A stretch of 64,000 nucleotides of DNA. Source: a virus. Where the stretch lies: UHGV virus genome UHGV-1558314; one strand, 5' to 3'. Both the position numbers and the translations under genes were made by a program. Below the pieces are notes generated by a model that saw only the letters and a program-made list of their open reading frames with translations, did no database searches and was not told the origin of the DNA. Position 1 is the first letter of the stretch. Each line of letters opens with the position of its first letter. Positions 1,870 through 56,598 of this stretch are shown one piece after another.

Positions 1870-3861
1870 ATGGCTGAAGTCAAGAATCAAGTGTTTAATC
1901 CAGTAGCACAATTCAAATCTGCTGAAGAAAAAGAAGCTGCGAAAGTTATATGGTGCAGTGAATCAGTCGCAATGGCATATGCTGCAGTTGACCAAGGCTT
2001 GCCACTTAGAGCAAATCCGTGGTTCTTTGGCAATATTGCACTGCGTAAGCCCGGATTGCTATACAGATACACTGACATAGAATTGCGTGAATGGCTTAGA
2101 TGCAAGTATGACATATTATATTTTGCTGACACATGGTGTCAGATTTTAACTCCAGATGGCACAAGAAAGCATTTTAATTTGAGACCATATCAACGCAAAA
2201 TGCTGCGTGCATATCAACGACAAAAGTATACGATAGTTCTTACTGGGCGACAAGTAGGCAAAACGGTCGTTACATCAGTATTTCTTGCTTGGGCTGTCAT
2301 TTTCAATCGTGAGCTCAACATAGCAGTACTTGGCGACCGCTTGGCTACATCAAGCGAAAACCTGAACAAAACAAAAGACATCATAAACAATCTACCATTC
2401 TTTATGAAGCCTGGTGTATTTGTTTGGAATGGGGGAATGGTTGCATTTGACAATGGTTGCAAAATTATCACAGGCACTGCTCAAAAGTCATCACTTGTCG
2501 GTAAAACAATTCACATCTTGTATCTTGATGAGCTCGCAATTCCGCCTGCTCAGCAATCAAAGACTCTTGTAGACTATGCATTACCAACAATTGCATCATT
2601 GCCAACTGGCAAAGTTATTGTAACATCTACGCCATCTGGTGATAATGTGTTCAAGACTTTGTGGCTTGGCGCAATTAACAAAACAAATGGCTTCTTTCCA
2701 ATTCAAGTAAACTGGTGGGACATACCAGGTCGTGATGAAAAATGGAAAGCTGAACAAATTGCAATTCTTGGTGAAGACGCTTTCAATGAGCAATACAACT
2801 GTGTGTTCTTGTCAGGTGCAACATCAATCTTCAATTCAAGAGCAATTGATGATATTGCAAGACGGCAGCAAAAGTACGAATTTGTTGCTGATGAGCATCT
2901 TGAATCGCTGCTCAGATTTTTCATTGCTGATTCAGATGTTGGCACTGAACCTGAGCCGCATTCATTTATGACTTGGCGTGCAGATATTGACCCAGCAACA
3001 CTTAAAAATGAAACATGCATCATCAACATCGACATTGCTGAAGGTTTATCTGGCGACTTTTCTGTCATACATGTGCATCGTATAGTTGACATTGCAAAAG
3101 ACACTGAACTTGAGCTTGATGCAAGCAATCTGTACGATATGTTTGATGACGACAAAAAATCACTATTTGCAAAAGCTGTTGAAATGCAACGTCAAATGTC
3201 AGCAACGCAAACTCAAGATGATGACGATGATGACGATGACGATTGGTTTGGTGCAGACGATGATGTTGCTCAAGGCGTCGATGCATATCAAGATTATGCA
3301 AATGCTGCAGTAGAAGAGATTGGCTTGTGGCGTTCAAATGTGACATCAATCAAAGTCATGGCTCTATATTTGCAGTTCTTAATGACATATGTGTTTGACG
3401 CAAACAAAACAAAGATTATCTATGAACGCAACAAATATGGCGGAGAGTTTCGTTCATATTGTTTGTCTGAACGTGCACGCAATATTGCAATTGATGAAGA
3501 GAGCTTCGTAAGCTTCCAACGAACGCTTGGTTCAGAACAACTTGCACCAGGCTGTTCAATTACACCGGGCACAAAGCCAGTGTATGTAAGACAGCTCAAA
3601 GACCTTGTTGAAACTGGTAAGATTCTTGAAAACAATGCAGACACACAAAGAGAGCTTACATATTTTGGCGGTGTCAAAGGCAAGAATGGGCACGTGTCAT
3701 ATCAGGCGTCGCCTGGCTTCCATGATGACATTGCAATGACTCTTGTATCTCTTGCAGCGTTTATGGACACTCGATGCAATGACTGGCTTGAACTGCTTGA
3801 TGTGTTCTACAATGGAAGCAGCCAAACAAGTTCTGATGATGACGATGACGATTGGATTTGA
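1870..3861 (+). CDS. terminase large subunit
   Basis: Walker A-like VLTGRQVGKT and Walker B-like HILYLDE as in T4 gp17-type terminases; two poly-Asp tracts (DDDDDDDDD internal, DDDDDD near C-terminus). Confidence 0.85.
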   Translation: MAEVKNQVFNPVAQFKSAEEKEAAKVIWCSESVAMAYAAVDQGLPLRANPWFFGNIALRKPGLLYRYTDIELREWLRCKYDILYFADTWCQILTPDGTRKHFNLRPYQRKMLRAYQRQKYTIVLTGRQVGKTVVTSVFLAWAVIFNRELNIAVLGDRLATSSENLNKTKDIINNLPFFMKPGVFVWNGGMVAFDNGCKIITGTAQKSSLVGKTIHILYLDELAIPPAQQSKTLVDYALPTIASLPTGKVIVTSTPSGDNVFKTLWLGAINKTNGFFPIQVNWWDIPGRDEKWKAEQIAILGEDAFNEQYNCVFLSGATSIFNSRAIDDIARRQQKYEFVADEHLESLLRFFIADSDVGTEPEPHSFMTWRADIDPATLKNETCIINIDIAEGLSGDFSVIHVHRIVDIAKDTELELDASNLYDMFDDDKKSLFAKAVEMQRQMSATQTQDDDDDDDDDWFGADDDVAQGVDAYQDYANAAVEEIGLWRSNVTSIKVMALYLQFLMTYVFDANKTKIIYERNKYGGEFRSYCLSERARNIAIDEESFVSFQRTLGSEQLAPGCSITPGTKPVYVRQLKDLVETGKILENNADTQRELTYFGGVKGKNGHVSYQASPGFHDDIAMTLVSLAAFMDTRCNDWLELLDVFYNGSSQTSSDDDDDDWI

Positions 3862-3927: not shown

Positions 3928-4431
3928 TCATCGTTTTCGATGGAAGACTTTGAATTTGTATCGCAATGTTCTGTCATTATCTGTGTATGTGTACAGAGCA
4001 GACTCAGATTTTTTAGTCCACATTCGCCAATTGACTGCAGGAAATCGAACGTCGCCTTCAACATAATTGTCAATCATCGTCAAGTACATTCTGTCTGCAT
4101 AAATCATTGCTTCTTCAAACAACTTAGAACCACCGATGATAAACATATTAGATGCAAATGCAGACTTGCAATATGCTATTGCATTGGCTAGCGTGCTAAA
4201 TACGAAATAGTCGCTTGTTGGCTGCAATGTAGAACTTATAATAATGTTAATTCTATCTGGCAAGGGCTTGCAATTCATCGACTCAAAAGTCTTACGACCC
4301 ATGATGACAATGTGATTCTTTGTGAGTTTCTTGAAGTGCTGCAAGTCATGTGGAATATGCCAGGGCAAATCACCATTGCGACCTATGACATTGTTATTTG
4401 ATACTGCTGCTATGATATTGATGTATTGCAT
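3928..4431 (-). CDS. dihydrofolate reductase
   Basis: IAAVSNNNVIGRNGDLPWHIPHDLQHFKKLT...IMGRKTFES matches the DHFR N-terminal signature. Confidence 0.85.
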   Translation of the reverse strand: MQYINIIAAVSNNNVIGRNGDLPWHIPHDLQHFKKLTKNHIVIMGRKTFESMNCKPLPDRINIIISSTLQPTSDYFVFSTLANAIAYCKSAFASNMFIIGGSKLFEEAMIYADRMYLTMIDNYVEGDVRFPAVNWRMWTKKSESALYTYTDNDRTLRYKFKVFHRKR

Positions 4432-6575: not shown

Positions 6576-6944
6576 TTATTTGATTGCACGTTCAAACATT
6601 CTGCAGCACCAGTCTTTATATGCAGGATTGCCCTTAACATCTGCTCGGAATGCACAGTTGATAAGAGTCTTCTCTTCATCAACAAAGCATGCATAACGAC
6701 AGTTTGCACAGCAACGAGCATCTTCATGTTTCATACAGAATGCTGCGCATGTCATGTCATCTTCTGTGTTGCGAATTGTTTTTGTTGGCGTGTATTCATA
6801 AGTGCACTGACAAATGCCATTATGCTCACGATGAAAGAAGCAATTTTTGCAAACATGTGCAACTTCTTCAACTGGCGCTGATGCTGCATATGTTTGTTCT
6901 TGCTCTACTGCAGGCTGTGCAGCAGCTTTAGTCTTTTTTGCCAT
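6576..6944 (-). CDS. cysteine-rich small protein (possible metal-binding regulator)
   Basis: Start taken at MAKKTKAAA; the longer ORF-track N-terminus translates the intergenic tandem repeat. About 16 Cys in 123 aa. Confidence 0.5.
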   Translation of the reverse strand: MAKKTKAAAQPAVEQEQTYAASAPVEEVAHVCKNCFFHREHNGICQCTYEYTPTKTIRNTEDDMTCAAFCMKHEDARCCANCRYACFVDEEKTLINCAFRADVKGNPAYKDWCCRMFERAIK

Positions 6945-6975: not shown

Positions 6976-7080
6976 TTGTTTTGATGCAAAATGCAAAACA
7001 ATATAAAATTGTTTTGATGCAAAATGCAAAACAATATAAAATTGTTTTGATGCAAAATGCAAAACAATATGTTGTTTTGA
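6976..7080. repeat. 33-bp direct repeat array (about 3.3 copies)
   Basis: ttgttttgatgcaaaatgcaaaacaatataaaa repeated head to tail; unit is partly palindromic (ttgttttg...caaaacaa); immediately upstream of the Cys-rich gene. Confidence 0.8.
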
Positions 7081-7083
7081 TAT

Positions 7084-8988
7084 CTACAAAGATTTGAACA
7101 ATTCCTCGTACGTTACAATTTTCTTGTCTTTTGCAAGTGCAGCTTTCATTTTATTCGACAGTTTGTTGGGGTCATTTGTAACAACATAGTCGCATGCATC
7201 AATGTTTGCACCGACATCTTCAAGCTTACCATTTGCAGCGTCAATAAATGCACCCTTTGTTGCCCAAGTAGGCTTAGGCGAGCCTGTCATGACAACCTTG
7301 ATTGTATCAGCGTTCGTAGATGCTTCTTTGTGCATTTCATTGAACATTACGAAGCATTGCGGGTATTGTTTGAGCAATCTTTGAATGACATTCAACTTTA
7401 TGAGCTTATCAATGGGTTCCATGCTCAAGCCCTTAAAGTCATATTGACAATTGCTGAAGTACGCAGATAACTGATACGCTGCTTTGCTGCCAAGACCAGG
7501 AATCTGCATGCATTCAATGAAATGCGATAAGTGAATGCTATTGAAGCGTTCACGTAAGCCTGTAATGACTGTACGGTCATTTTTGCTGTTCATGTCAAAC
7601 TGTAGCAGCTCAAACAATCGTTCATTGTCAACTTCTTGCACAATGCAGAACAAGTCTTCAATTGTTGGCGCATCAGAGAATGTCAACATGACATCAAGAT
7701 TGTCTTGTGCAATAAGCAAAGCCTCGCAAATTTTCGTAGCATAAACCCAACCAAGCCCATCGATGTTAAGCTTGCAAACGCCTTTGATAAACCTCGTGCA
7801 TCTTGCAAATTCCTCAGGCATCATCAAGTGAATGCCATCGACATATGCATGCACAGGAATGTCAGCTTTGCTGATATCACCAGGTTCAATACATTCTTGA
7901 ATGTCTGGAATAATGTCACCACCCTTTTCAATACGAACAAGAGCACCTGGCCAGATACCATTTGCATGCAAAAAGCCGTAGTGAAATGCAGATGCAGCCT
8001 TGACTGTAGTGCCATCAAGCTCAACAGGCTCAAGTTCAACTCTGGGAAAGAGTTCACCATTGATTCGTTGACGCCAATCAATTCGAATCACTCGAGTTAC
8101 AGCAGACATTGCGTCAAGCTTCAATGCAACCATGTTTGCATATTCTGCTGCATTTGCAAACTGCTGCTCAATCCACAAGTCATCTGCAAAAGGCTTGACT
8201 ACAATGCCATCAATGCGATATTTGAATTCTGAGCGCTCATTGGCAATTTTTGTGCAAGTTTCTGCAAACTCATTGTAATCAGTGACTTCAAAGACTTCTG
8301 CAATAAATTCTGCGGGCCAGCCAACTTTTGCAAGAGCATCTGCAGGATTGGTTTGCTCATATATTTTGTCATCAAGTGTGTCAGTTAGCATGTATGCCAT
8401 AGGGTCAATGTCTTCCATACCACACATATCTAATGACTTCACAAATGCCGCAGCAGTATTGCGCTCATTTTTGTATTTGACTGAGCCATCAGAGTTGAAG
8501 TGATATTTTTGCGCAAAAACGTCTTTTGCAATGACAGCTTCAAAGCGAATCTGATATGGCTGTTCTGCTGCAGCAAGCTGCATCGGCACTTTGCCTGCTA
8601 CGACAAATTTGCGTGTGACATCATAGCCCGTGTAGCCATCACCACGAGTAACAACTTTCAGCAATCTGCCATCAGTGTCGTAATGTGCTTCACAGCCCAT
8701 GCCGTCATACTTGTGCATAAGCAGCATTTCATGACCAACAATGTTGCACACAGTATCATGCAACGCAGTCGTAAACTGTGATTTTGTATGAATTGCAGCA
8801 AGACTCAATGCAGGTGTAAGATGCTTAACTTCTTGCTTATTTGACTCTTCAAAGCGAATCTTATGTTTGATGTCGCTATTTGCAAGAAGCTGCTGTTCAA
8901 GAGCATCAAATGCCTCATCAGACATTATCGGATTGCCTGCATAATACGCAGCTATTGCGTCATGGTACATATTGAGTGTATCAGTCAT
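7084..8988 (-). CDS. ligA: NAD-dependent DNA ligase
   Basis: Adenylation motif HKYDGMG followed by TRGDGYTGYDVT (LigA K-x-D-G ... TRGDG..GEDVT pattern); helix-hairpin-helix-like IPGLGSKAAYQL. Confidence 0.8.
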   Translation of the reverse strand: MTDTLNMYHDAIAAYYAGNPIMSDEAFDALEQQLLANSDIKHKIRFEESNKQEVKHLTPALSLAAIHTKSQFTTALHDTVCNIVGHEMLLMHKYDGMGCEAHYDTDGRLLKVVTRGDGYTGYDVTRKFVVAGKVPMQLAAAEQPYQIRFEAVIAKDVFAQKYHFNSDGSVKYKNERNTAAAFVKSLDMCGMEDIDPMAYMLTDTLDDKIYEQTNPADALAKVGWPAEFIAEVFEVTDYNEFAETCTKIANERSEFKYRIDGIVVKPFADDLWIEQQFANAAEYANMVALKLDAMSAVTRVIRIDWRQRINGELFPRVELEPVELDGTTVKAASAFHYGFLHANGIWPGALVRIEKGGDIIPDIQECIEPGDISKADIPVHAYVDGIHLMMPEEFARCTRFIKGVCKLNIDGLGWVYATKICEALLIAQDNLDVMLTFSDAPTIEDLFCIVQEVDNERLFELLQFDMNSKNDRTVITGLRERFNSIHLSHFIECMQIPGLGSKAAYQLSAYFSNCQYDFKGLSMEPIDKLIKLNVIQRLLKQYPQCFVMFNEMHKEASTNADTIKVVMTGSPKPTWATKGAFIDAANGKLEDVGANIDACDYVVTNDPNKLSNKMKAALAKDKKIVTYEELFKSL

Positions 8989-10434: not shown

Positions 10435-11778
10435 TCAGAATTGAAACATGTTGTTGATAAACGTATCGCCAAACTGCGCATCTGCAGCTTTTGACGTTAT
10501 GTCATACGTTGCTGCATTGATGCCAAGCGCAGTTATTGTTGATTGCGCATCTACAAGTTCATACACTTTGCAGCTTGGCTTTGTAATGTCTGTAAATGAC
10601 ATTGTGTACATGAAGTTTTCAAAGATATGTCTTGGTACTTCACGTGCATTTAAGCATGCAAGCTGTCTATTTTCTGCAAATCGTGCTTTGAGCCATTCAA
10701 AGTCATCTGCAGGTACTGAGTCAACATTCATGAATGTCTTATATGCTGCAGTCAAAAACATTGTAATGACTTCGTCATCATACAAATCTTCACCAAGCAT
10801 ATATCGCATGCCAGGTTCCAACTGTTTTGCATTGTTAGTTTCAATGCCAAGAGACTTCAATGCATCGTAGATTTGGCCTACAGATAAATGCGACCAATTG
10901 TTGCCACGTTTCTTGAGCATGCCAAACAATTCTGGGATGTTGTCGCCAGCGTCGCCAAGTACAATCTTATAAAACAAGAAACTTGGTACATGCTCACGAA
11001 TCTCAGCGTCAACATACTCAAGCAGTGCTGCATATGGGTTGTCAAGTATACGAGTTTTGACTTGGGCGCCAGCAAAGCTGTCGAAGATACTGCTGCCAAC
11101 ATTCTGTGACTTTTCACCAGCAAGTTCTTTGATGTGTTCAAGCACAAACTTGTCGCCCATCAATACTCGAGACTTCTGCCAGCCATTTGCTTTGCAGCCA
11201 TTTTTGATGATTGCATATGCTGAACATGCGCCAGTATAAGTATCGACACAAACACATTGAGTCAAGTCTTTATCAGTGCCTTGATACAGCACATTGCGGC
11301 CTTTTGACGTTGCATATCTGCTAAGCATGAAGATGACATCATCAGCTTCTGCTTCAGAAAGCTTAATGTGACGAATGCCATGCGCTTCTTGCATCAACTT
11401 CAACCATTCAAAGTATACACCATAAACTTTGAGCCAGTTGATTGTCTGGTCATACGTTCGAGTGCCTTTGTAACCAGCATCTTCACCTTGTTCAAAGCCC
11501 TCTCTTGTCAAGTATTGATGCTTTGAGCGCCACAAATTCGACTTTTTGTCATCGACAGCAATGATGACATCATCAACGACATCTTCAAGTCTACGAAGCT
11601 CATTACAAAGGTCGAGTGTTAGCTTGGATATCAAAGACAGTCTTGATGCATTCTCATTCTTTTCAAATGACAAGTCTGTACCTGATTTTGCTAATACTGG
11701 CACTCTGCTCTTCAACCACCAGCTTCCATCAATTACGTAGATGAACTTGTGATTATGAGTATTGTCAAGCTTTGTCAT
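10435..11778 (-). CDS. 5'-3' exonuclease / flap endonuclease (RNase H-like)
   Basis: FIYVIDGSWWL near N-terminus and GDAGDNIPELFG (GDxxDNIPGV-type motif of the FEN / 5' nuclease family). Confidence 0.7.
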   Translation of the reverse strand: MTKLDNTHNHKFIYVIDGSWWLKSRVPVLAKSGTDLSFEKNENASRLSLISKLTLDLCNELRRLEDVVDDVIIAVDDKKSNLWRSKHQYLTREGFEQGEDAGYKGTRTYDQTINWLKVYGVYFEWLKLMQEAHGIRHIKLSEAEADDVIFMLSRYATSKGRNVLYQGTDKDLTQCVCVDTYTGACSAYAIIKNGCKANGWQKSRVLMGDKFVLEHIKELAGEKSQNVGSSIFDSFAGAQVKTRILDNPYAALLEYVDAEIREHVPSFLFYKIVLGDAGDNIPELFGMLKKRGNNWSHLSVGQIYDALKSLGIETNNAKQLEPGMRYMLGEDLYDDEVITMFLTAAYKTFMNVDSVPADDFEWLKARFAENRQLACLNAREVPRHIFENFMYTMSFTDITKPSCKVYELVDAQSTITALGINAATYDITSKAADAQFGDTFINNMFQF

Positions 11779-12622: not shown

Positions 12623-13018
12623 TTATCGATTCTTTGAAAATGAAACTTGTGTTGATTGCTGTGGTCGTATGTCAACAAACACTGAATCTACTGCATCAAA
12701 CTTAAGCGTAGCAAGTGAATCAATTGTTTGTCTTGCTTTTTGCAAATTGCGTGCTTTGATGCCTGATACTGTTGCAGACTTTTCAAGCAGATATGCATCA
12801 CGAGGCGTCCAGTAACGAGCTTGCCAACGCATATGCATAGAGTCGACAATCAGATTTTCTGCTGCAGCATCAATAATTGCTGCAGTTGATTGCTGAGTTG
12901 CATCAAGTCGTTGCTGTAACACCGCCAATTGTTTTGTGTGCTGTTGCTGTTGTTTGAACACTACGCTGATTGCGCCAAATAAAAGAAACCACGCAATAAA
13001 ATGCAAAAATGACTTCAT
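12623..13018 (-). CDS. hypothetical membrane-anchored protein
   Basis: N-terminal hydrophobic segment FIAWFLLFGAISVVF followed by Q-rich region. Confidence 0.4.
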   Translation of the reverse strand: MKSFLHFIAWFLLFGAISVVFKQQQQHTKQLAVLQQRLDATQQSTAAIIDAAAENLIVDSMHMRWQARYWTPRDAYLLEKSATVSGIKARNLQKARQTIDSLATLKFDAVDSVFVDIRPQQSTQVSFSKNR

Positions 13019-13989
13019 GATTGCTGCACGAATTTTGAGAGCTCGAATGATAATGCGAGCATTGTTATGAATTGGTCAATTGATTGTTTCGACTCTACGC
13101 CATATTTGTGAGCTGCAATGACAATGTCTCCAAGTCGTGCAACAAAACCAGGCGTGTTCTTTGATAGCTTTGCATAGCACCAATTTGCAAAGTCAGTTGA
13201 GAGAGCATTGATGACTTCGGTTTCACGACCTTTGTATTGTGACAGTGTTTTGTAAAATTCACGTGGGTCTTTGCATGCAACAATGAAATCATACAGCTCT
13301 TCAAACTTTGCTGACATGCCCTTTGTGACATGCTCAAGCGTTATATGACGCTCACCTTGATTGAAGACAAAGTAGCAAATGTTCAGAATTTTACGGAAGT
13401 CTGGGTAGTTATCTTGAATAAGCTTGATGAGCGCTTCTTTTTCAATGGTACATTCATTTTCCTTCAAGATATTGTAGACGCGAACCATGCATTTCTTCAT
13501 CAACTGTTCTGCGACATCATCAGAAAAGTCGAATGATAACATTTTGAGACGAGATTGAGCAATTGATGCATCAATGCGGTCTGGATAGTTGCAAGTTGCA
13601 ATGAAAAACGCAATGCCTGCAAACTCTTCAATGGTGCCTCTTAAAGCCATCTGACTTTGCGTCGATAAAAAATCCATCTCATCAAGCAGTACCACCTTTA
13701 CGCCACTTGACGACAATGACATATGCTGACAGAATTCTGAAATTGTGTTGCGAACTGTGTCAATGCCAGAATTCTTTGAGCAGTTGATTTGCAGAATTGA
13801 ACGTCTATCAGTCCACTTCAATGCCAATGCTCTTGCTGCGGTTGTTTTTCCACTTCCTGGTGCTCCTGCGAACAAATAATTTTGCGGTTGACCATTAAAT
13901 GCTGCAGCATAATCATCAGGCACAATTAACTCTTCGACTTTTGTTGGCCTGTAGCGTTCTAACCAAGTTCTATCTTTAAGGGATGTCAT
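13015..13989 (-). CDS. sliding clamp loader subunit (gp44 / RFC-like AAA+)
   Basis: WLERYRPTKVEEL, Walker A GAPGSGKTT, Walker B VVLLDEMD, and NYPDFRKILN resembling T4 gp44. Confidence 0.85.
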   Translation of the reverse strand: MTSLKDRTWLERYRPTKVEELIVPDDYAAAFNGQPQNYLFAGAPGSGKTTAARALALKWTDRRSILQINCSKNSGIDTVRNTISEFCQHMSLSSSGVKVVLLDEMDFLSTQSQMALRGTIEEFAGIAFFIATCNYPDRIDASIAQSRLKMLSFDFSDDVAEQLMKKCMVRVYNILKENECTIEKEALIKLIQDNYPDFRKILNICYFVFNQGERHITLEHVTKGMSAKFEELYDFIVACKDPREFYKTLSQYKGRETEVINALSTDFANWCYAKLSKNTPGFVARLGDIVIAAHKYGVESKQSIDQFITMLALSFELSKFVQQS

Positions 13990-14014: not shown

Positions 14015-14043
14015 TAATACTACTGACTTGTCAATTTTGCACA
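14015..14043 (-). promoter_or_regulatory. recurrent bipartite promoter-like motif
   Basis: ataatactactgacttgtcaattttgcac upstream of the clamp loader start. Confidence 0.45.
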
Positions 14044-15398
14044 GCATGACCACAGTCATAAACTGCAACATAGCCAGCATCAATCATCTCTTGCTCATCT
14101 TGTCCGCAGTCTTCAATATGTTTGCCTGTCTTGTAATTATGCCAATGCTTATGTATTACATAGTCTTTTGCAAAGTGGGGATTTTTTGACATATCTGTAC
14201 TATCAATTGGTAAATGTTCGATATGTCTACGAATAATATCAATAACGTAGTCTACATTATCCCAATCCCATATTGATACGCAAACAAAACCGTGCTGCAA
14301 TGCAACTAATGTTTTTGTTAAATGATATGTTGGCTGCTTTAGATGCAATGGATTATTGTAATTTGTGCGACCCACACTATATTGAAATGTATATGTGCTA
14401 TTATGTGTAAATGACGGATTGACTTCTATTAACAATTTGCATGTCTGTGTAATATATGACAAATCATATGTGTATGCGTTTATATGAAAGCTGTCAAGTT
14501 CAAATGTAATGCCAAGCGCTTGCTGTAATTTTGATTGCCACCATTTGTTAATTGCAGAAGTCATGCGCCCATTATGTTTAATGCATTGAGGCAATTGGCA
14601 TGCCCAATCAACGCCATACAATGTTTTACATGTCTGTGTAGCTGTACGCATATTAAATGCTCTATAGCCATACAATTTGTGTCGTGTTTGACAACCCTGT
14701 TCATGGTTTACATATAATGGGTTGCCATAACGTTCAAGTTTTGTTTGCTCAATTTTGTGTTTATCGCCAAACGCATTGCCATATTTGCGCAATTTTGTAT
14801 GAATTTGTTTATCTACAGGGCCTTGCGGATAGCCATGTCGCTCAATGTTTGTTTTACGACACTTGTCGACATTGTATTTAGACTTACCATATCGTTCAAG
14901 CTTTGTTTGCTGAATTTTATCAATGTCGCCAAACGCATTGCCGTATTTTTGCTGCTTTGTTTGCAACATTTGTTTAACATTGCCTTGCGGATAGCCATAC
15001 TTTAGCATATTCTTTTGTCTAATCTTAGATTTATCACCAAAGATTGAGCCATCATACAATACGCGTTTAGTTGCCATCATTTGTTGCACATTGCCGCTTT
15101 TATTGCCATACTTTTCAATCTTCGTATTAAGCATTTTTTGAACATTGCCATGTCCGCTGCCATAACGCGCTTTTCGTGTATCAATCATTTGCACTTTAAC
15201 TGTGTCAATTTGCAATGGATTTTCAACACCGTGTTTGCGCAAGCAGCCAATACGTTTGTTGAAAGCTAAACGAATTTTGCCATGCGACGTTTTACATGGC
15301 GCATATCTCACAAAGGGTGTTTCTGCAAGCAATCTGTCTCTTTCCTCTTCAAGTTCTTTTATGCGAGCTTCAAGAGCTTCTCCAGTTAATGGTTCCAT
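14031..15398 (-). CDS. paralog family member B (repeat array plus conserved C-terminal domain)
   Basis: About ten ~19-aa repeats K-x-x-(R/K)YGN-x-x-G-(D/N); C-terminal motifs LLIEVNPSFTHNST, VSIWDWD, VYDCGH shared with the ORFs at 55475..56494, 56599..57621 and 59771..61060. Confidence 0.6.
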   Translation of the reverse strand: MEPLTGEALEARIKELEEERDRLLAETPFVRYAPCKTSHGKIRLAFNKRIGCLRKHGVENPLQIDTVKVQMIDTRKARYGSGHGNVQKMLNTKIEKYGNKSGNVQQMMATKRVLYDGSIFGDKSKIRQKNMLKYGYPQGNVKQMLQTKQQKYGNAFGDIDKIQQTKLERYGKSKYNVDKCRKTNIERHGYPQGPVDKQIHTKLRKYGNAFGDKHKIEQTKLERYGNPLYVNHEQGCQTRHKLYGYRAFNMRTATQTCKTLYGVDWACQLPQCIKHNGRMTSAINKWWQSKLQQALGITFELDSFHINAYTYDLSYITQTCKLLIEVNPSFTHNSTYTFQYSVGRTNYNNPLHLKQPTYHLTKTLVALQHGFVCVSIWDWDNVDYVIDIIRRHIEHLPIDSTDMSKNPHFAKDYVIHKHWHNYKTGKHIEDCGQDEQEMIDAGYVAVYDCGHAVQN

Positions 15399-15632: not shown

Positions 15633-18600
15633 TCAAAAGCCTCGATTCATCAGTTCATCAGCAAGTCGTTCAAGTTCAGTAGCAGCCTTTTGTCGCTTGG
15701 CTTCTCTTTCAGCTTCAACATCTGCTTTGCTAACTGGCGATTCCAAGTCTTTTGCAGGCGCATCTTCAATAACAGTCAAATTGCTGTCATCAAACTTGTT
15801 GTCAATGTCAACTCGTTTGAATGATATGATGCCTGATGACACCTGAGCTTCTGCTTGCTGTTTGTCAAATACAAGACTGCTAATCGTTGATTGCAGTTTT
15901 GCAGATGCCAGCAATCGTTCTGTGTTATCTGCAAAAATGTCATCAGTAAACAATACATGCAGCATTTGAGCAATTGAATCACGACTTCTACTGTAACCAC
16001 TGTCAAATGCTGGCAGCTGCTTAATTGCGTAGATATCGCCATCATGTACTGTAATTGCATTGAACATACGTCTTGCAATTGATGCCACAGAATCAAGTAC
16101 GTCTGGTGATTGTGGCGTGTAGCCTCGTGAATCGAAGTATATGAGTGCAGAGTTCTTAACAATTTGGTCGACAACTTCTGATGCAATTGAAACTGCATCT
16201 TTGCTATTGTTGAAGACATCATTCAGCATATATGACACAATCTTGATGTTTGATTCATGCATTGTGCCACTTGAGCCTGCATCAAATATTGACACTGCGT
16301 CTTTGATTGATTTGAGTCTTGCAAGTCGATACATGTCTTTGTTGTCAATGACATACATATCGATAGTCTTCATGATTGTGTCAAACAAGTAATGATGCGA
16401 TAATGTTCGCAATGCATGTCGCCAATCATCAAATACTCGTCTGTCTTCTACAAGATATGTAAGCTTGCCATTTTTCTTGACAAGTTCAAATCTGTCTGAT
16501 TCTTGAACTTGCTCTGCTGGCAAATTCATGATAACTTCGAATGTAGCCTGATTGACAAATGATGCAAACATTTTGCCAATCTTGCTGTTCTTTTCTTGAC
16601 GGTACTCTGCTCGAGCTTCTTTTGCAGCATTGAGAACTTGAGCAATCATCATGTCATCTGCAACAACATCTTGCACGACTTTGCATTCATAGCCATACGA
16701 TGACAATGTGTTCTGAATGATGACAAGCTGAGTAGCCCATTGTCGCCATTTCTGCTCAAACATATTGAGCTTATACGCAGTCAAGTGAATCTTGATTTCA
16801 CCTGTGTACGGGTCACGATAAAAGTACGGTGCATTGAATGCCCATTCAAAGAAATCAAAGAGACTTCTTGAGTCATTGCGCTTTGTCTGCATTTGCAAAA
16901 TGTCCCAGAATGTCAACTTTTCAACATTTGTTAATGTCAAGTCAAGCTCGTCATATGCAGTAATGTTTCGCGGGTCACCATTCGCTTTTGTCATGCTGAA
17001 ATACACATATGACTGAATGGATATTTTGCGAAGCCGTGAATTGAACTGTTCGATTTCTTGACCTGTGAATGCCTCGTCATAAATGACATCAAATTCATAG
17101 CTGTCATTGATATCAATGCCAACTGACAAGTAATTTGTGCAGAATAGCAGTTCAATATCACCGATTGTGCCAGATTCATTGATTGACTGAACAAAGTCAT
17201 GCATTGCATTGTCACGCTTGTAGTACTTGACTTTTGGATTTCTGCCAAGCATCATTCGAACTGCACCAACAATTGCATGAGTAAATGCGTCGCCTTTGTT
17301 TGTTGGGAACAGAATTCGTTTGCCTGCTTTAATTGCTGTTGAGATATGTGATGCAAGTTTTGTAATCTTGTCGCCGTCATGTTTGCAGCAGACAAATCTG
17401 ACACCTTTGTTGTAATTAAGCGGCTTGTCGCAGAATATGACAGTGTCAAAATGACAGAACATGTGTTCAGCTACAGGTGTGCCTGTCATCAAAATGACTT
17501 TTGTCTGCAACTTTGTTAAGTTGTCAATTACATTTGCAGGCACAACATCACGATATGCAGACATTGTCAACAAGTGTGACTCGTCGACGACAACGTAGTC
17601 ATATAAAATTGATACTTCCTCTGGGTCAGCTAATGTAAACTTATCGAATGTCAAAGCTACATTGACATGCTTAGACAATTCAAGACCGCGCTGACCAAAT
17701 GAGCAATACATGCCAAGGTCTGACATCTCAATCTTTGATTGCAAGATTGATGTGTATGGTTCAATCAGCATGACTCGTTTTCCATCACGAGTAAGCTGCT
17801 TGATAAATTCTGTCTTGCCTGAGCCTGGCCGTGCAATCAAGTAATTGATGCCAGTTACAAATGCTTCTTCAAGTTCATGCTTGTATGTTGACAAGTATTC
17901 ATTTTCTGCAAGTTTGAAGACATGCGTATGTCGAAGTTCAAAGTCTTTTTGCTGTGCAACTTTCGACATAATGTACTGACTGATTGCATCTTCTGTATTG
18001 TGTTCAGCAATCAGTTCATTGACAGTTACAGATGACTTGTTAGCAAACTTAAATTTGAAGCCATGCTTTTCACGAAGTTCTTTGACAGATGACCATACGC
18101 ACGGACAAGTACCTGCTGCATTACGTTCAACTGCAGACCTGAATGAGTTTGCCCAGCTGTTATGCTCTGCATTGAACTTTGGATTGCCCGAACACATTTG
18201 CAAGAACATTTGCAACACATGTTCATATTGACCACCTGTAGTTGACTTCAAATCATATAGCCATGCAAGTGTATAGGCCAAGCGATATCTACCAGTGTTA
18301 TCGTAGTTTTGTGGAGTGATTGTGAGCATTGTGCCCTCTTCAATCATTGTGATGTCGTCACGTTGAGTAAAGACTTGCTCGCCGTCAGTCATTGCAGTCA
18401 TATGAGACTTCGGTGCATAATCAAAACGACCTCGAAGTCTATCAAACATTGTCTTTAGTTTGTCGATGCAGAATTTTGCATCAACTGAAGCATAGATGCT
18501 AACATCAAACTCTGGTTGCTCAATGAATTGCGCGTTTTGATTGATGATGACATCTTTATCTCGTGCAACAAACAGTGGCTGACTAATTTTGCAAACGGAT

Positions 18601-19232
18601 GCATCGACTACTCGAGATTCAGACATTTGTCCAGACTTTTCAAGTCGTCTTGACAACGTGTTATTTACAGGATGCACTTCTCGAGCCATGTCATGATTGC
18701 CCTCTGATTCAAGCTGGTCACTCAGCAACACAAGGCATTTCCAAATGACATACAGTTTTGCTTCATATGCATCAAGATATGTTTTCTTTGCTGCAGAAGC
18801 ATTTTCAGATGACACAAATACAGCGTCTTCAGTTTGAATTGACAGAGGCTTTGAGATTGTGTAGACGTGCAAGCCTGAACCAGAAGTTGACTTAAGCACA
18901 GCAACACACCACGGATATTTGCAAAGCATTGCAGCCAAACGTGGTTTGATGACTTCTACAAGTTCTTTTGAGTGAAAGTCCAAATCGACTGGTTGTAGAC
19001 CTGACCAAGTCAAGTAGTCATGAACTTGCTGTTTTGGTCGAGCAAACATTGTCGATTGCGACACAAAGGGACGATGCGCTTTATCTACTGTGTCAAGTGA
19101 CTCATCATTTGCAACTTTCATGATGAGGTCATACAATGAAATTTGTTGCTTATTGACAGTGTCTTCTGTTTTACGAACACTGTCGCCCATCATGAACTTT
19201 ATGCCACTGAGCAAATCTTTGACGTTTGACAT
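15633..19232 (-). CDS. large SF2 helicase-domain protein (possible replicative helicase/primase)
   Basis: Walker A LIARPGSGKTEF, DExH box VVVDESHLL, motif III-like LMTGTP; about 480-aa N-terminal domain of unknown function. Confidence 0.6.
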   Translation of the reverse strand: MSNVKDLLSGIKFMMGDSVRKTEDTVNKQQISLYDLIMKVANDESLDTVDKAHRPFVSQSTMFARPKQQVHDYLTWSGLQPVDLDFHSKELVEVIKPRLAAMLCKYPWCVAVLKSTSGSGLHVYTISKPLSIQTEDAVFVSSENASAAKKTYLDAYEAKLYVIWKCLVLLSDQLESEGNHDMAREVHPVNNTLSRRLEKSGQMSESRVVDASVCKISQPLFVARDKDVIINQNAQFIEQPEFDVSIYASVDAKFCIDKLKTMFDRLRGRFDYAPKSHMTAMTDGEQVFTQRDDITMIEEGTMLTITPQNYDNTGRYRLAYTLAWLYDLKSTTGGQYEHVLQMFLQMCSGNPKFNAEHNSWANSFRSAVERNAAGTCPCVWSSVKELREKHGFKFKFANKSSVTVNELIAEHNTEDAISQYIMSKVAQQKDFELRHTHVFKLAENEYLSTYKHELEEAFVTGINYLIARPGSGKTEFIKQLTRDGKRVMLIEPYTSILQSKIEMSDLGMYCSFGQRGLELSKHVNVALTFDKFTLADPEEVSILYDYVVVDESHLLTMSAYRDVVPANVIDNLTKLQTKVILMTGTPVAEHMFCHFDTVIFCDKPLNYNKGVRFVCCKHDGDKITKLASHISTAIKAGKRILFPTNKGDAFTHAIVGAVRMMLGRNPKVKYYKRDNAMHDFVQSINESGTIGDIELLFCTNYLSVGIDINDSYEFDVIYDEAFTGQEIEQFNSRLRKISIQSYVYFSMTKANGDPRNITAYDELDLTLTNVEKLTFWDILQMQTKRNDSRSLFDFFEWAFNAPYFYRDPYTGEIKIHLTAYKLNMFEQKWRQWATQLVIIQNTLSSYGYECKVVQDVVADDMMIAQVLNAAKEARAEYRQEKNSKIGKMFASFVNQATFEVIMNLPAEQVQESDRFELVKKNGKLTYLVEDRRVFDDWRHALRTLSHHYLFDTIMKTIDMYVIDNKDMYRLARLKSIKDAVSIFDAGSSGTMHESNIKIVSYMLNDVFNNSKDAVSIASEVVDQIVKNSALIYFDSRGYTPQSPDVLDSVASIARRMFNAITVHDGDIYAIKQLPAFDSGYSRSRDSIAQMLHVLFTDDIFADNTERLLASAKLQSTISSLVFDKQQAEAQVSSGIISFKRVDIDNKFDDSNLTVIEDAPAKDLESPVSKADVEAEREAKRQKAATELERLADELMNRGF

Positions 19233-21645: not shown

Positions 21646-21903
21646 TTAATTGTTGAGATACTGTTGAAGTTCTACTTCTGTTGCAAGTCTGCATTGCTTA
21701 ACATTGAACACTGTCACAGCATTGCAACACTTACATTTATGCCAAATTTCAGCTACAGCAGTTTGTTCGTTCTTTGGCAATGAATGTCTGTACTTGACAA
21801 TGTCTGTAGTGCCGCAGCATTTACATGTGCCAAGCACTACATACAATTTTGAGTTAGTCGCGCTCAATTGTGACATGTCTAACTTTTGCTTCTTCATAGC
21901 CAT
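21646..21903 (-). CDS. hypothetical zinc-ribbon protein
   Basis: CKCCG ... CKCCN Cys clusters. Confidence 0.35.
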   Translation of the reverse strand: MAMKKQKLDMSQLSATNSKLYVVLGTCKCCGTTDIVKYRHSLPKNEQTAVAEIWHKCKCCNAVTVFNVKQCRLATEVELQQYLNN

Positions 21904-23275
21904 GCTCTCTTAGCTTTTCAATGAGTGCTTCAACATCTGCTCGATAAGTGTCACGATTGTCAGAACGTTCAACTACTTTGTACTCTTTCTTAAGTTCTAC
22001 AATCTTTGCTTTAAGCTTTTTCTGCTCATCTTGAGTCAATCTGCTGACTGCAATTTCAAGAACTTTGTGATTGATTGAATGCTCATCAAGAATAGACTTG
22101 ACTTGTTTAGTAGTCATCTTATGCAGTACAATGACTTCGTCAAGCACAAGTTGAATGAACTTCATGATGTCTTCATACCACTGAATTGTAGTACGAATGT
22201 CTTCAAGTCGTTTTTGCTTGCGAATTTCATAGAATTGCAAACGCCACTCGACAAATCGCATAATGAGTGAACCGACTGTTTTGTATCGACGAATCTTGTC
22301 ATCGAAGTCAATAACAGTCAAGTTGTCACGTTCAATTCTGCAGAACATTGCAAGAGTCCAGTATAATGAATCTTTTGCAAGCAGTTCAGCAAGTTTTGCT
22401 TTCGTGAACTTTATTTCATACAGAATCTTATCTTTATGCGAGTAGTTTGTCCATGCTTCAATAATGTCGCGGTCAAGCAACATATTGAGATGATTTTCAT
22501 AGCCATCGAATGTGTTGTTGTATGGGATTGCAGTTACATTGACTGTAGTGTCATCAACAACTTCCATTCGACCATGATGCTCATATACACCGTTGACAAG
22601 TTGCCATTCTCCTTGCAAGCCTTTGACATATGGCGTAATTTTACGTTCAGAAATATCTTCGCCATCAAGAGCATCAATAACAGCATTGCAAACTTCAATT
22701 GGATTACGATTGATAATTGTGCTTGAATAGCCAACCGCGATGCCCATAATTGAGTTTAGCAAAATTGTGGGCACAATTGGCAGATAAAATTGCGGCTCAA
22801 CTTCAATGCCCTCTTGCCAACGATTTGTAAGCAGCTCATTGTCTTTCATGAGCAGCTCAAATGCATCTGATAATCGAACAAAGATGTATCGAGGCGCACC
22901 TGCATATGGGCTGTAGAACGTACCAAATTGGCCTTCACCAATGAAATATGGAATGTTCTGCTTAAAGTCCTGAGACATGATTGTTATATTGCCCTCAAGA
23001 CTTGTCTGGCCATGTTCATAGCCGCCCTCTGCTTTCACATAACCCGCAAATGCACCTACAGTTTGCTTAACGCCACCTTTAAGACGCTTAAGTGCAACAT
23101 ACATGATTTTTCGTGCAGTAGGCTTAAAGCCATCACGAACATCAGGTATTGCACGTTCAAATGCTGTGTGTAATGCGTACTCTTTATATCGAGTGTTCAA
23201 AAATTCCGCAATGGAAATTTGAATATCTTGTTCTGTCAATGGTTCTGTATAGACTTCTTGTTTTCGTCGTGCCAT
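21854..23275 (-). CDS. DNA topoisomerase II, DNA-cleavage subunit (GyrA / gp52-like)
   Basis: AIPDVRDGFKPTARKIMYVA matches the GyrA-type signature around the active site; start taken at MARRKQ (ATG at 23275). Confidence 0.85.
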   Translation of the reverse strand: MARRKQEVYTEPLTEQDIQISIAEFLNTRYKEYALHTAFERAIPDVRDGFKPTARKIMYVALKRLKGGVKQTVGAFAGYVKAEGGYEHGQTSLEGNITIMSQDFKQNIPYFIGEGQFGTFYSPYAGAPRYIFVRLSDAFELLMKDNELLTNRWQEGIEVEPQFYLPIVPTILLNSIMGIAVGYSSTIINRNPIEVCNAVIDALDGEDISERKITPYVKGLQGEWQLVNGVYEHHGRMEVVDDTTVNVTAIPYNNTFDGYENHLNMLLDRDIIEAWTNYSHKDKILYEIKFTKAKLAELLAKDSLYWTLAMFCRIERDNLTVIDFDDKIRRYKTVGSLIMRFVEWRLQFYEIRKQKRLEDIRTTIQWYEDIMKFIQLVLDEVIVLHKMTTKQVKSILDEHSINHKVLEIAVSRLTQDEQKKLKAKIVELKKEYKVVERSDNRDTYRADVEALIEKLREHGYEEAKVRHVTIERD

Positions 23276-23305
23276 TGTAGCTAATTTGATTTTATTTCCT
23301 ATATT

Positions 23306-23334
23306 ATTGTACAACATGCAAAACGAGTTTGCAC
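23306..23334 (-). promoter_or_regulatory. recurrent bipartite promoter-like motif
   Basis: attgtacaacatgcaaaacgagtttgcac upstream of the topo II gene. Confidence 0.5.
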
Positions 23335-30357: not shown

Positions 30358-30652
30358 AATCTGTCAATATAAAGCATCGTACAAGTCTTGAAATGAGTCG
30401 TTTATGACCCGTCTCAACTCGTATCATATGCTTGGTGAATAGTGGACCTGCTGCTGTTGCACAATGTCTGTCAAGGGCATTTAATACTTTGTTCATTGCA
30501 ATCAATGGGTGCAAATGACTATTCGGCCAGCATTCTTCTGCAATGTATGTCAAAATGCCATCGCCATATGACACGACTGCGCATTTATCTGCAATAAGAC
30601 GCTTCTTAGCAATCTCTGCAACTTTCTGTGTAGAACAACGCATAGCAATCAA
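30332..30652 (-). CDS. hypothetical protein
   Basis: 106-aa ORF. Confidence 0.35.
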   Translation of the reverse strand: MIAMRCSTQKVAEIAKKRLIADKCAVVSYGDGILTYIAEECWPNSHLHPLIAMNKVLNALDRHCATAAGPLFTKHMIRVETGHKRLISRLVRCFILTDYENLHQIQ

Positions 30653-50461: not shown

Positions 50462-50812
50462 TTACAAATATGAGTACAGTTTGTTCATAACTCGTTCAAT
50501 TGCAAATTCAACACCATATTGCAACAACTGTTCAGTGCTAAATGTCTTTGCTGCATGTGCATGCGCAACAATATGCTTTGTCTGTGCATATAATATCCAA
50601 GTATCAGTTGGCCTGTCATAAGTTACTGTCAGTCTACATGTTTGCAACACAAACTCTTGACTAAAGTATTCTCTTCGCCAAAACTCTGGTTCTGCAATAT
50701 GCAAATCAAGCCAAGCAAACTCAAACAGAATTTGTTTAAGTTGACGTTGATGCTTACGTTCAGCACGATATGAGTTGCTGAATAGCCATTTAATGATGTT
50801 CATCATTTGCAA
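50462..50812 (-). CDS. hypothetical protein
   Basis: 116-aa ORF. Confidence 0.4.
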   Translation of the reverse strand: MQMMNIIKWLFSNSYRAERKHQRQLKQILFEFAWLDLHIAEPEFWRREYFSQEFVLQTCRLTVTYDRPTDTWILYAQTKHIVAHAHAAKTFSTEQLLQYGVEFAIERVMNKLYSYL

Positions 50813-56494: not shown

Positions 56495-56598
56495 GTGTAT
56501 AATTTGTATGAGATTATTGTACAACATGCAAATGCATGTTGCATTTGATGCAAAGTACTGCGTACACAACATAAAGTACAAGTTTGCTTTTGACAGAC

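What the first reader, a model, noticed from the sequence alone, without database searches (positions are those of the whole stretch)
7084..8988. NAD-dependent (LigA-type) ligase in an otherwise T4-like replication gene set
T4 itself encodes an ATP-dependent ligase. Here the ligase shows the KxDG...TRGDG..DVT signature of bacterial NAD-dependent LigA, suggesting acquisition from a bacterial lineage or a distinct phage clade.
Basis: partly seen in the sequence, partly recalled or inferred. Interest (0 to 1): 0.4.

Follow-up and report, generated by a model that had tools for sequence, protein, structure and literature searches.

The report
Zinc-finger-less NAD-type ligase of jumbo phage
The gene is a real, intact NAD-type (LigA-family) DNA ligase, but it is the usual ligase of a known group of giant T4-related phages (relatives of Sphingomonas phage PAU) rather than a recent bacterial acquisition, so the finding is correct but ordinary.

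Summary
The ORF at 7084..8988 (minus strand, 634 aa) is real and is a LigA-family ligase. Pfam adenylation and OB domains score above their cut-offs. PHROG 3869 matches full-length (3.6e-84). An AlphaFold model (pLDDT 90) matches LigA structures at E 1e-27 to 1e-38, against 4e-9 for T4 ATP-ligase. The adenylated lysine (K93), the other nucleotidyltransferase residues and the five NMN-binding residues of domain Ia are conserved. dN/dS against a 94%-identical relative is 0.10.

The window is not a close T4 relative. Capsid, clamp loader and ligase all hit the same jumbo myoviruses best: Chryseobacterium MA9V-1/2, Sphingomonas PAU, Tenacibaculum PTm1/pT24 and Lak. These belong, or are close, to the published T4-related jumbo-phage subgroup 2.2, where NAD and ATP ligases are already known to replace one another.

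The ligase falls in a phage/metagenome-only clade, and gene order is conserved on a 177-kb relative contig. It is therefore inherited within a phage lineage, not recently taken from bacteria.

One small peculiarity: this protein and its PAU-like relatives lack all four zinc-finger cysteines of bacterial LigA.

Verdict: correct observation, known kind, low interest.

The parts
7084..8988 (-). Complete ligase gene (634 codons plus stop codon at 7084-7086)
   Evidence: ORF list. Pfam, PHROG and NCBIfam hits. dN/dS 0.097 against the 94%-identical gene on L015.
8839..8988 (-). Domain Ia (aa 1-50), the NMN/NAD+-specificity module. It is shortened relative to E. coli (aa 1-69).
   Evidence: Y15, Y16, D24, F27 and D28 align with E. 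coli Y22, H23, D32, Y35 and D36. Y15, D24 and D28 are invariant, Y16 is conserved in at least 90%, and position 27 is aromatic (mostly F) across phage and bacterial sequences. The model shows two helices at 2-16 and 24-36. The Pfam Nlig-Ia hit is only weak (13.9 bits against a cut-off of 27).
8113..8838 (-). Nucleotidyltransferase (adenylation) domain, aa 51-292, with motifs I-V
   Evidence: PF01653 covers residues 51-276. K93, D95, G96, R115, E150, R176, R252, D260, G261, K265 and K290 align with E. coli K115, D117, G118, R136, E173, R200, R277, D285, G286, K290 and K314.
8710..8712 (-). Codon of K93, the predicted AMP-accepting lysine of motif I (KYDG)
   Evidence: Aligns with E. coli K115 and is invariant in all 53 and 63 aligned sequences. 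The role of Lys115 is taken from PMC4797296.
7873..8112 (-). OB-fold domain, aa 293-372
   Evidence: PF03120 covers residues 298-368. The model is all beta-strand over 295-368. K355, I359 and I360 align with E. coli R379, V383 and I384. I309 and N310 replace R333 and T334.
7813..7872 (-). Cysteine-free remnant (aa 373-392) at the position of the LigA tetracysteine zinc finger
   Evidence: E. coli C408, C411, C426 and C432 align with A381, a gap, M390 and a gap. The model shows a short beta-hairpin at 382-384 and 387-389. No PF03119 hit.
7354..7812 (-). Helix-hairpin-helix domain, aa 393-545 (divergent)
   Evidence: The phmmer alignment to E. coli LigA extends to residue 533, which corresponds to E. 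coli 553. The model is all-helical over 392-541 with pLDDT above 90. G413 and G500 align with E. coli G455 and G521. No Pfam HhH hit.
7087..7308 (-). C-terminal BRCT-like domain, aa 561-634
   Evidence: The Pfam BRCT hit is sub-threshold (16.8 bits against 21.3, residues 588-634). The model has the beta-alpha-beta-beta-alpha-beta-alpha order. T568-G569, K613 and A617 are conserved with bacterial LigA.
10435..11778 (-). Context: FEN/RNase H-like 5'-3' exonuclease, upstream in the same transcription direction
   Evidence: PF02739 at 34.6 bits and PHROG 107. The position relative to the ligase is conserved on L002 and L016.
13015..13989 (-). Context: T4 gp44-type clamp-loader subunit
   Evidence: PHROG 168 at E 2e-58. 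The best phage hits are PTm1, MA9V-1/2 and PAU, followed by T4-like cyanophages and coliphages.

Best explanation
The gene encodes the replicative and repair nick-sealing DNA ligase of an uncultured large myovirus of the PAU / MA9V / Tenacibaculum-phage / Lak lineage, which lies within or near the T4-related jumbo-phage subgroup 2.2. By homology it works like bacterial LigA. Domain Ia positions the NMN moiety of NAD+. K93 attacks the adenylyl phosphate to form ligase-AMP and release NMN. The AMP is then passed to the 5'-phosphate of a nick, and the 3'-OH attacks to seal it. The nucleotidyltransferase, OB and HhH domains clamp the DNA. With the neighbouring FEN/RNase H-like nuclease and the clamp loader, it would finish Okazaki fragments. 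Shown here: family membership, the fold, conservation of the catalytic and NMN-binding residues, purifying selection, and inheritance within a phage lineage. Inferred: NAD+ use, nick sealing, and the role in lagging-strand maturation. It differs from bacterial LigA in lacking the four zinc-binding cysteines. This trait is shared with its cultured PAU-like and Lak relatives, so zinc is presumably not needed.
For: Family: PF01653 and PF03120 score above their gathering cut-offs. PHROG 3869 matches full-length at 3.6e-84. E. coli, T. filiformis and M. tuberculosis LigA structures are hit at 1e-17 to 1e-9. Fold: the AF2 model has pLDDT 90.3. Foldseek top hits are all LigA (8.5e-38 to 5e-27 for full-length chains), and T4 ATP-ligase 6dt1 scores only 3.7e-9. 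Residues: the table shows the catalytic core conserved and the Ia positions conserved (invariant Y15, D24, D28; Y16 in at least 90%; aromatic at 27). Selection: dN/dS is 0.097 over 147 nucleotide differences. Lineage: ligase, capsid and clamp loader share the same best phage hits. The NJ tree places the ligase in a phage-only group. Synteny holds on L002, L015 and L016. Literature: the complementary distribution of ATP and NAD ligases in jumbo phages, group 2 being T4-related, and subgroup 2.2 containing Lak and PTm1 come from PMC7824862. NAD-ligases occur in more than half of gut 'NAD-jumbo phages', whose hosts are mainly Bacteroidota (PMC11662467). Domain roles in EcoLigA are from PMC4797296.
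Against: No biochemistry exists for this protein or for any close relative. Scores against the bacterial LigA equivalog models are far below cut-off (TIGR00575: 175 bits against 444). The Pfam Ia, HhH and BRCT models do not reach their thresholds. Some residues that are invariant in the sampled bacteria are changed: E113 to M91, R333 to I309 and T334 to N310. Close relatives vary even at R136 (K) and K290 (Y or R). Only 64 kb of the genome is visible, so a second, ATP-type ligase elsewhere cannot be excluded. The tree is a neighbour-joining tree on very divergent sequences (75-80% differences) and is open to long-branch artefacts.
Confidence: 0.88

Rival explanations
1. The phage recently captured a bacterial (host) ligA gene, replacing a T4-type ATP-ligase.
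For: NAD-ligases outside bacteria are generally thought to derive ultimately from horizontal transfer (PMC4797296 introduction). Some phage LigAs are clearly host-like: the record note for Clostridium phage c-st gives 39% identity to C. tetani LigA, and c-st, phage G and RSL2 fall outside the phage group in the tree.
Against: Identity to bacterial LigAs, including Bacteroidota MAG proteins, is only 20-23%. The best bacterial hit scores 119 bits, against 248-1374 bits for the metagenomic clade. There is a phage-only clade with 100% NJ support. The best-hit phages agree with those of the capsid and clamp loader. Synteny is conserved. The loss of the zinc finger is shared with PAU, MA9V-2, pT24 and Lak, whereas all sampled bacteria keep it. 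GC content is uniform across the gene.
Confidence: 0.04
2. The protein is LigA-shaped but no longer a standard NAD+-dependent DNA nick-sealer. It might use ATP or another nucleotide, act on RNA, or be a catalytically dead binder or NAD+ sensor used in phage-host conflict.
For: The zinc finger is lost. E113, R333 and T334 are replaced. Motif IV Lys and R136 vary in close relatives. The bacterial equivalog cut-offs are missed by a wide margin. NAD+ is a known battleground in phage defence (PMC7824862).
Against: All residues of the adenylyl-transfer chemistry are intact: K93, D95, G96, E150, R176, R252, D260, K265 and K290. The NMN-binding Ia residues are conserved. Purifying selection is strong. 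The protein is encoded among replication genes. The same substitutions at the E113 and K290 positions are common among the other phage LigAs sampled in the tree.
Confidence: 0.05
3. The ligase's main job is not Okazaki-fragment joining but a specialised one, such as sealing site-specific nicks in injected or packaged genome DNA (as discussed for T5-like phages) or repairing DNA cut by host defences.
For: T5-family phages carry an NAD-ligase, and a PR1 phage ligase was crystallised on a 'phage nick sequence' (PDB 9hu3, listed). The gene lies only about 3 kb from the large terminase gene.
Against: There is no evidence of nicked genomes in PAU-like phages. The gene sits in one co-oriented block with the FEN-like nuclease and the clamp loader. 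This is a sub-function of the same enzyme rather than a different identity.
Confidence: 0.03

Closest known systems
NAD-dependent DNA ligases of PAU-like jumbo myoviruses (Chryseobacterium phage MA9V-2 MA9V2_154, Sphingomonas phage PAU gp206, Tenacibaculum phage pT24 gp006, Prevotella Lak megaphages)
   Same: Full-length homology at 25-30% identity, with E 3e-56 to 1e-26. The length is similar, about 625-640 aa for the three annotated phage ligases. The domain order is the same. The zinc-finger cysteines are absent in the same way. The capsid and clamp-loader genes are also each other's best matches.
   Different: Identity is below 30%, there is no nucleotide similarity, and the local gene neighbourhood differs in the cultured phages. 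The window belongs to a separate, so far uncultured subclade: P0001-P0024 at 43-94% identity, on contigs up to 177 kb.
Bacterial LigA (E. coli LigA; PDB 2owo, 5tt5)
   Same: The Ia-NTase-OB-HhH-BRCT order, the catalytic motif residues and the NMN-binding residues are shared.
   Different: There is no tetracysteine zinc finger and domain Ia is about 19 residues shorter. E113 becomes M, R333 becomes I and T334 becomes N. Identity is 20%. The score is far below the NCBIfam equivalog cut-offs.
T4 gp30 ATP-dependent DNA ligase (PDB 6dt1)
   Same: It has the same presumed job in a related replication apparatus, and shares the nucleotidyltransferase plus OB core of the covalent nucleotidyltransferase superfamily (Foldseek E 3.7e-9, 11% identity).
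   Different: The cofactor module differs, since gp30 has no domain Ia. gp30 also has no HhH or BRCT domain. No ATP-ligase Pfam family is hit.
Other viral NAD-ligases: the split LigA of T5-like phages, phiKZ-like phage ligases, and mimivirus and entomopoxvirus ligases
   Same: They are virus-encoded LigA-family enzymes (PMC1684257; PMC2806865). The mimivirus enzyme has a functionally important BRCT domain (PMC10386641). From my own recollection, not verified here, the mimivirus and entomopoxvirus enzymes also lack the tetracysteine module (Benarroch & Shuman 2006; Sriskanda et al. 2001).
   Different: T5-type enzymes are split into two subunits (PHROGs 3359 and 3498 hit only at 2.8e-24 and 7.8e-07) and lie outside the PAU-like supergroup. 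The entomopoxvirus ligase lacks BRCT.

Membership tests
NAD+-dependent DNA ligase (LigA family) | NAD-ligase adenylation (nucleotidyltransferase) domain above the Pfam gathering score | tested here: met
   PF01653 scores 89.1 bits against a cut-off of 27, over residues 51-276.
NAD+-dependent DNA ligase (LigA family) | Motif I KxDG with the adenylated lysine, plus motif III Glu, motif IV Asp/Lys and motif V Lys | tested here: met
   K93, D95, G96, E150, D260, K265 and K290 align with E. coli K115, D117, G118, E173, D285, K290 and K314.
NAD+-dependent DNA ligase (LigA family) | N-terminal domain Ia with the NMN-contacting residues (E. coli Y22, H23, D32, Y35, D36) that confer NAD+ specificity | tested here: met
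   Y15, Y16, D24, F27 and D28 align with them. Y, D and D are invariant, and Y and F are the majority residues in the sampled bacteria too. The model shows two N-terminal helices. Caveat: the Pfam Nlig-Ia hit is sub-threshold (13.9 against 27). The identity of the five E. coli residues is from my own knowledge (Sriskanda & Shuman 2002, cited in PMC4797296).
NAD+-dependent DNA ligase (LigA family) | LigA-type OB-fold domain | tested here: met
   PF03120 scores 45.9 bits against a cut-off of 32.9.
NAD+-dependent DNA ligase (LigA family) | Tetracysteine zinc finger between the OB and HhH domains (E. coli aa 405-432) | tested here: not met
   All four Cys positions are non-Cys or gaps and there is no PF03119 hit. 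This is a feature of canonical bacterial LigA. It is also absent in the annotated NAD-ligases of PAU, MA9V-2 and pT24 and in the Lak-B6 ligase ORF that I translated from an unannotated record.
NAD+-dependent DNA ligase (LigA family) | Helix-hairpin-helix DNA-binding domain | tested here: inconclusive
   There is no Pfam HhH hit. However, the phmmer alignment to E. coli LigA runs through the HhH region up to E. coli residue 553. The model is confidently all-helical over 392-541. Foldseek aligns more than 600 columns to full-length LigA chains.
NAD+-dependent DNA ligase (LigA family) | C-terminal BRCT domain | tested here: inconclusive
   The Pfam BRCT hit scores 16.8 bits against a cut-off of 21.3. 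The secondary-structure order and the conserved TG, K and A positions fit a BRCT domain.
NAD+-dependent DNA ligase (LigA family) | NAD+ (not ATP) as the adenylyl donor; nick-sealing activity | not testable with these tools
   This needs an enzyme assay.
Bacterial LigA equivalog (NCBIfam TIGR00575 / NF005932) | Whole-protein score above the curated equivalog cut-off | tested here: not met
   The scores are 175.4 against 444.45 and 157.7 against 369. The protein is a divergent viral family member, not a bacterial-type orthologue.
ATP-dependent DNA ligase (T4 gp30 type) | ATP-ligase adenylation domain, and a better fit to ATP-ligases than to LigA | tested here: not met
   No ATP-ligase Pfam family is hit at E<=1. 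Foldseek gives 3.7e-9 for T4 ligase against 1e-27 to 1e-38 for LigA.
T4-related jumbo phages (group 2.2 of Iyer et al. 2021) | gp23-type capsid, T4-type replication and packaging proteins, and nearest relatives among named members (Lak, Tenacibaculum PTm1) | tested here: inconclusive
   The window carries a gp44-type clamp loader, gp39- and gp52-type topoisomerase II subunits, TerL, a gp23-type MCP (weak PHROG 138 hit, 2e-15) and a tail sheath. Best hits include PTm1 and Lak. The group's defining family B polymerase, UvsW helicase and sigma factor are not in this 64-kb window, so they could not be checked.

The most novel reading that the evidence does not exclude
The whole PAU / MA9V / Tenacibaculum-phage / Lak lineage, including this uncultured subclade, carries a natural full-length LigA in which the zinc finger has been replaced by a cysteine-free hairpin, while sister phage ligases (P0026, P0027, P0029, LR756500) keep it. 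Contacts that are invariant in the sampled bacterial LigAs are also relaxed (E113, R333/T334; motif IV Lys and R136 in relatives). If these enzymes are active, they would be zinc-independent LigA variants. They could show how the OB-HhH hinge is held without metal, and they may be insensitive to host zinc limitation.
Probability: 0.6. Interest if true: 0.25.

Novelty: new member of a known kind. Interest (0 to 1): 0.15.

Why it matters
It matters little beyond annotation. It confirms that the phage in this window belongs to the PAU-like branch of T4-related large myoviruses, and that this branch uses an NAD-type ligase. That fits the published picture that ATP and NAD ligases substitute for one another among jumbo phages, and that many gut and environmental jumbo phages depend on NAD+. 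The only mildly useful by-product is a set of more than 25 diverse, full-length, zinc-finger-less LigA sequences under purifying selection. These could serve enzymologists interested in what the zinc module of LigA is for.

Tried and rejected
1. A megablast of 24 kb of the window against 50,697 phage records found nothing. Relatives had to be found at the protein level.
2. ATP-ligase reading: rejected by Pfam and by the fold search.
3. Recent bacterial origin: rejected by identities, tree, synteny and the shared zinc-finger loss.
4. I tested whether all zinc-finger-less ligases form one clade. They do not in the NJ tree (0% support), because Lak groups with the zinc-bearing P0026-type sequences and P0028 was not in the tested set. 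Single versus multiple loss of the finger therefore stays open.
5. The first MAFFT alignment placed Y15/Y16 one column off E. coli Y22/H23. L-INS-i with more sequences resolved this as a one-residue deletion after the YY pair.
6. A literature search for the Ia residues with the term 'LigA' returned only irrelevant 'ligand' papers. Two Shuman-lab mutagenesis papers (PMC2516987, PMC2659207) are not held. Statements on which E. coli residues are essential therefore rest partly on my own knowledge.
7. The promoter/terminator scan around the gene gave no more sites than shuffled sequence.
8. The 1199-aa and 1068-aa neighbouring ORFs gave no PHROG or PDB-sequence hits and at most one sub-threshold Pfam hit.
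Full report
**Observation.** The window contains an ATG-initiated ORF at exactly 7084..8988 on the minus strand, encoding 634 aa. It carries the quoted motifs: K93-Y-D-G96, T114-R-G-D-G118 and D122-V-T124. Pfam places the NAD-ligase adenylation domain at residues 51-276 (PF01653, 89.1 bits, cut-off 27). It places the NAD-ligase OB domain at 298-368 (PF03120, 45.9 bits, cut-off 32.9). There are sub-threshold hits to BRCT (588-634) and to the N-terminal NAD-binding domain Ia (14-46). There are no hits to the LigA zinc finger, to HhH models or to any ATP-ligase family, even at E<=1. PHROG 3869 ('NAD-dependent DNA ligase') matches end to end at 3.6e-84. The NCBIfam LigA equivalog models match, but far below their cut-offs (175 bits against 444). 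The best solved structures by sequence are E. coli LigA entries (1e-17, aligned over residues 53-533).

**Fold and the NAD-versus-ATP question.** An AlphaFold2 model built on a 63-sequence alignment has mean pLDDT 90.3. Against the PDB, every top Foldseek hit is an NAD-dependent ligase. Full-length LigA chains score 8.5e-38 to 5e-27, and adenylation-domain fragments about 1e-16. The best ATP-dependent ligases, including T4 ligase 6dt1, score 1e-9 to 4e-9 at 11-15% identity.

**Residue-level check against E. coli LigA.**
- The adenylyl-transfer residues are all present. K93, D95, G96, R115, E150, R176, R252, D260, G261, K265 and K290 align with E. coli K115, D117, G118, R136, E173, R200, R277, D285, G286, K290 and K314.
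- Domain Ia confers NAD+ specificity in EcoLigA (PMC4797296). Y15, Y16, D24, F27 and D28 align with E. coli Y22, H23, D32, Y35 and D36. Y15, D24 and D28 are invariant across all phage and bacterial sequences aligned. Y and F are also the majority residues in the sampled bacteria at the second and fourth positions.
- The differences are as follows. Domain Ia is about 19 residues shorter. E113 becomes M91, R208 becomes K184 (K also occurs in bacteria), R333 becomes I309 and T334 becomes N310. All four zinc-finger cysteines (C408, C411, C426, C432) are missing. They are replaced by a shorter cysteine-free segment that the model folds as a small beta-hairpin (residues 382-389).
- The region 392-541 is confidently all-helical, as expected for the HhH domain. 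Residues 561-634 have the strand and helix order of a BRCT domain.
- Compared with the gene of a 94%-identical relative, dN/dS is 0.097 (147 nucleotide differences). The gene is under strong purifying selection.

**What genome this is.** The window is a myovirus fragment with nearly all genes on the minus strand and about 40% GC. It encodes:
- the large terminase (1870-3861, plus strand) and DHFR (3928-4431);
- the ligase, a FEN/RNase H-like nuclease (10435-11778) and a gp44-type clamp loader (13015-13989);
- the two T4-type topoisomerase II subunits (21854-23317 and 30649-32643);
- the ribonucleotide reductase large subunit (39620-42841), an endolysin, an arabinose-5-phosphate isomerase and a dNMP kinase;
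- an HNH/homing endonuclease, a major capsid protein (57967-59682) and a tail sheath (62620-63882).

There is no nucleotide-level match to any of 50,697 deposited phage records. At the protein level, the capsid protein (33-37% identity), the clamp loader (35-36%) and the ligase (24-30%) all have the same best hits. These are Chryseobacterium phages MA9V-1/2, Sphingomonas phage PAU and the Tenacibaculum phages, with PTm1/PTm5 hit by the capsid and clamp loader and pT24 by the capsid and ligase. The Prevotella Lak megaphages follow for the capsid and the ligase. T4-like coliphages and cyanophages appear only further down the clamp-loader list. Iyer et al. (PMC7824862) classify Lak and Tenacibaculum PTm1 in jumbo-phage subgroup 2.2 and describe group 2 as the jumbo phages related to T4. 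'T4-like replication gene set' is therefore true only in this distant sense. No polymerase, helicase or primase was identified in the window.

**Origin of the ligase.** The large protein database holds a tight, purely metagenomic clade around the window protein. P0001 is 94% identical, P0002 62%, and about twenty more are 43-53% identical, on contigs up to 177 kb. There is then a sharp drop to 27-31% (P0025-P0029) and to bacterial LigAs at 119 bits or less. On the 177-kb relative contig the order is large ORF, clamp loader, FEN-like nuclease, ligase, terminase, the same as in the window. Shorter contigs show the same immediate neighbours. I built a neighbour-joining tree of 53 sequences on 591 trimmed columns. 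The bipartition separating 32 phage and metagenome sequences from all bacterial LigAs (plus the host-like ligases of phages c-st, G and RSL2) has 100% support in 200 bootstrap replicates. The PAU-like supergroup that contains the window has 72% support. The metagenomic clade without P0025 had 100% in the 100-replicate run. On that trimmed alignment, identity to bacterial LigAs, including Bacteroidota ones, is 20-23%, against 25-28% to PAU-like phage ligases. These results, and the shared loss of the zinc finger in the window clade, MA9V-2, PAU, pT24 and Lak-B6, argue for long residence in a phage lineage rather than recent capture from a host. The tree is a distance tree on very divergent sequences and should not be over-read. 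In particular, the zinc-less ligases were not recovered as one clade, so the number of loss events is open.

**Comparison with what is known.** Phage-encoded NAD-ligases have been known since the T5 and phiKZ/EL genomes, and also occur in entomopoxviruses and mimivirus (PMC1684257; PMC2806865). In the phage collection, 455 records match this protein. They include T5-like, phiKZ-like, Erwinia, Ralstonia, Bacillus G and Lak phages. [quoted passage not shown] The NAD type occurs in group 1 and in those group 2 and 3 members that lack the ATP type. A 2024 survey reports NAD-ligases in more than half of NAD+-synthesising gut jumbo phages, many with Bacteroidota hosts (PMC11662467). PAU gp206, MA9V2_154 and pT24 gp006 are already annotated as NAD-dependent ligases. 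An NAD-ligase alongside T4-type replication genes is therefore a described pattern.

**Mechanism.** By homology with EcoLigA (PMC4797296), the steps are as follows. K93 reacts with NAD+, which domain Ia holds through its NMN moiety, giving ligase-AMP and NMN. AMP is then transferred to the 5'-phosphate at a nick. The 3'-OH then attacks to seal the nick. [quoted passage not shown] The gene is co-oriented with the FEN/RNase H-like nuclease and the clamp loader, which points to Okazaki-fragment maturation and repair. These steps are inferred, not shown.

**Verdict.** The 'bacterial acquisition' reading is not supported as a recent event, while the 'distinct phage clade' reading is supported. The feature is a new, divergent member of a known kind. 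The only mildly novel aspect is that it documents a sizeable clade of full-length, zinc-finger-less LigA enzymes. To my recollection, not verified here, that architecture is already known from mimivirus. Interest is low.

Noticed in passing
window 6976-7070: A perfect 33-bp tandem repeat (2.9 copies, unit TTGTTTTGATGCAAAATGCAAAACAATATAAAA) lies 13 bp downstream of the ligase stop codon and upstream of the next minus-strand gene. Each unit holds an 8-bp inverted repeat (TTGTTTTG...CAAAACAA). The repeat is unique in the window. The 94%-identical relative (L015) has the same element with one unit fewer. It may be a regulatory or terminator-like element. Function is unknown.
   Followed up: partly
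window 6576-6941 (-): A cysteine-rich 121-aa ORF (MAKKTKAAAQ..., many CxxC-like pairs) lies directly downstream of the repeat. It has no PHROG hit. It is conserved in position on L015 as a 137-aa ORF.
   Followed up: no
window 15633-19232 (-) and 36301-39507 (-): Two very large ORFs (1199 and 1068 aa) have no PHROG or PDB-sequence match above noise and no Pfam match above threshold. The 1199-aa ORF corresponds in position to a 1225-aa ORF directly upstream of the clamp loader on the 177-kb relative contig L002. It may therefore be a conserved replication-module protein of unknown type.
   Followed up: partly
window 14031-15398 (-): A 455-aa ORF (weak DUF7487 hit) sits between the 1199-aa ORF and the clamp loader. 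In relative L002 those two genes are adjacent, and TnsA-like endonuclease ORFs are inserted elsewhere instead. This suggests mobile, homing-type insertions in the replication module.
   Followed up: no
window 55475-56572 (-): An HNH/homing-endonuclease gene (PHROG 3339 at 8e-42, PHROG 559 at 4e-35) lies in the structural region near the major capsid gene.
   Followed up: no
L008 (LR756500.1, uncultured 462-kb phage), about 1900-3100 of the locus: The homologous ligase gene of this megaphage is interrupted between motif IV and motif V by about 1.2 kb that carries its own ORF in another frame. This looks like an intron or homing-endonuclease insertion. This ligase keeps the four zinc-finger cysteines.
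   Followed up: partly
alignment of relatives (P0004, P0006, P0008, P0013, P0019, P0020, P0022, P0023; MA9V-2, PAU, pT24): Close relatives of the window ligase vary at positions that are invariant in the sampled bacterial LigAs. R136 is K in 8 of 11 clade members. Motif IV Lys (E. coli K290) is Y, R or S in many. The E. coli E113 position is M, S or T across phage LigAs. The window protein itself has R and K at the first two positions.
   Followed up: partly
window 21854-23317 (-) and 30649-32643 (-): The two T4-type topoisomerase II subunit genes (gp52-like and gp39-like) are separated by about 7 kb of mostly unannotated small ORFs.
   Followed up: no
window 50803-51519 (-): An arabinose-5-phosphate isomerase-like gene (PHROG 5670) is also present in Sphingomonas phage PAU as gp212, a few kb from its ligase. 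It is another marker shared with the PAU lineage.
   Followed up: no
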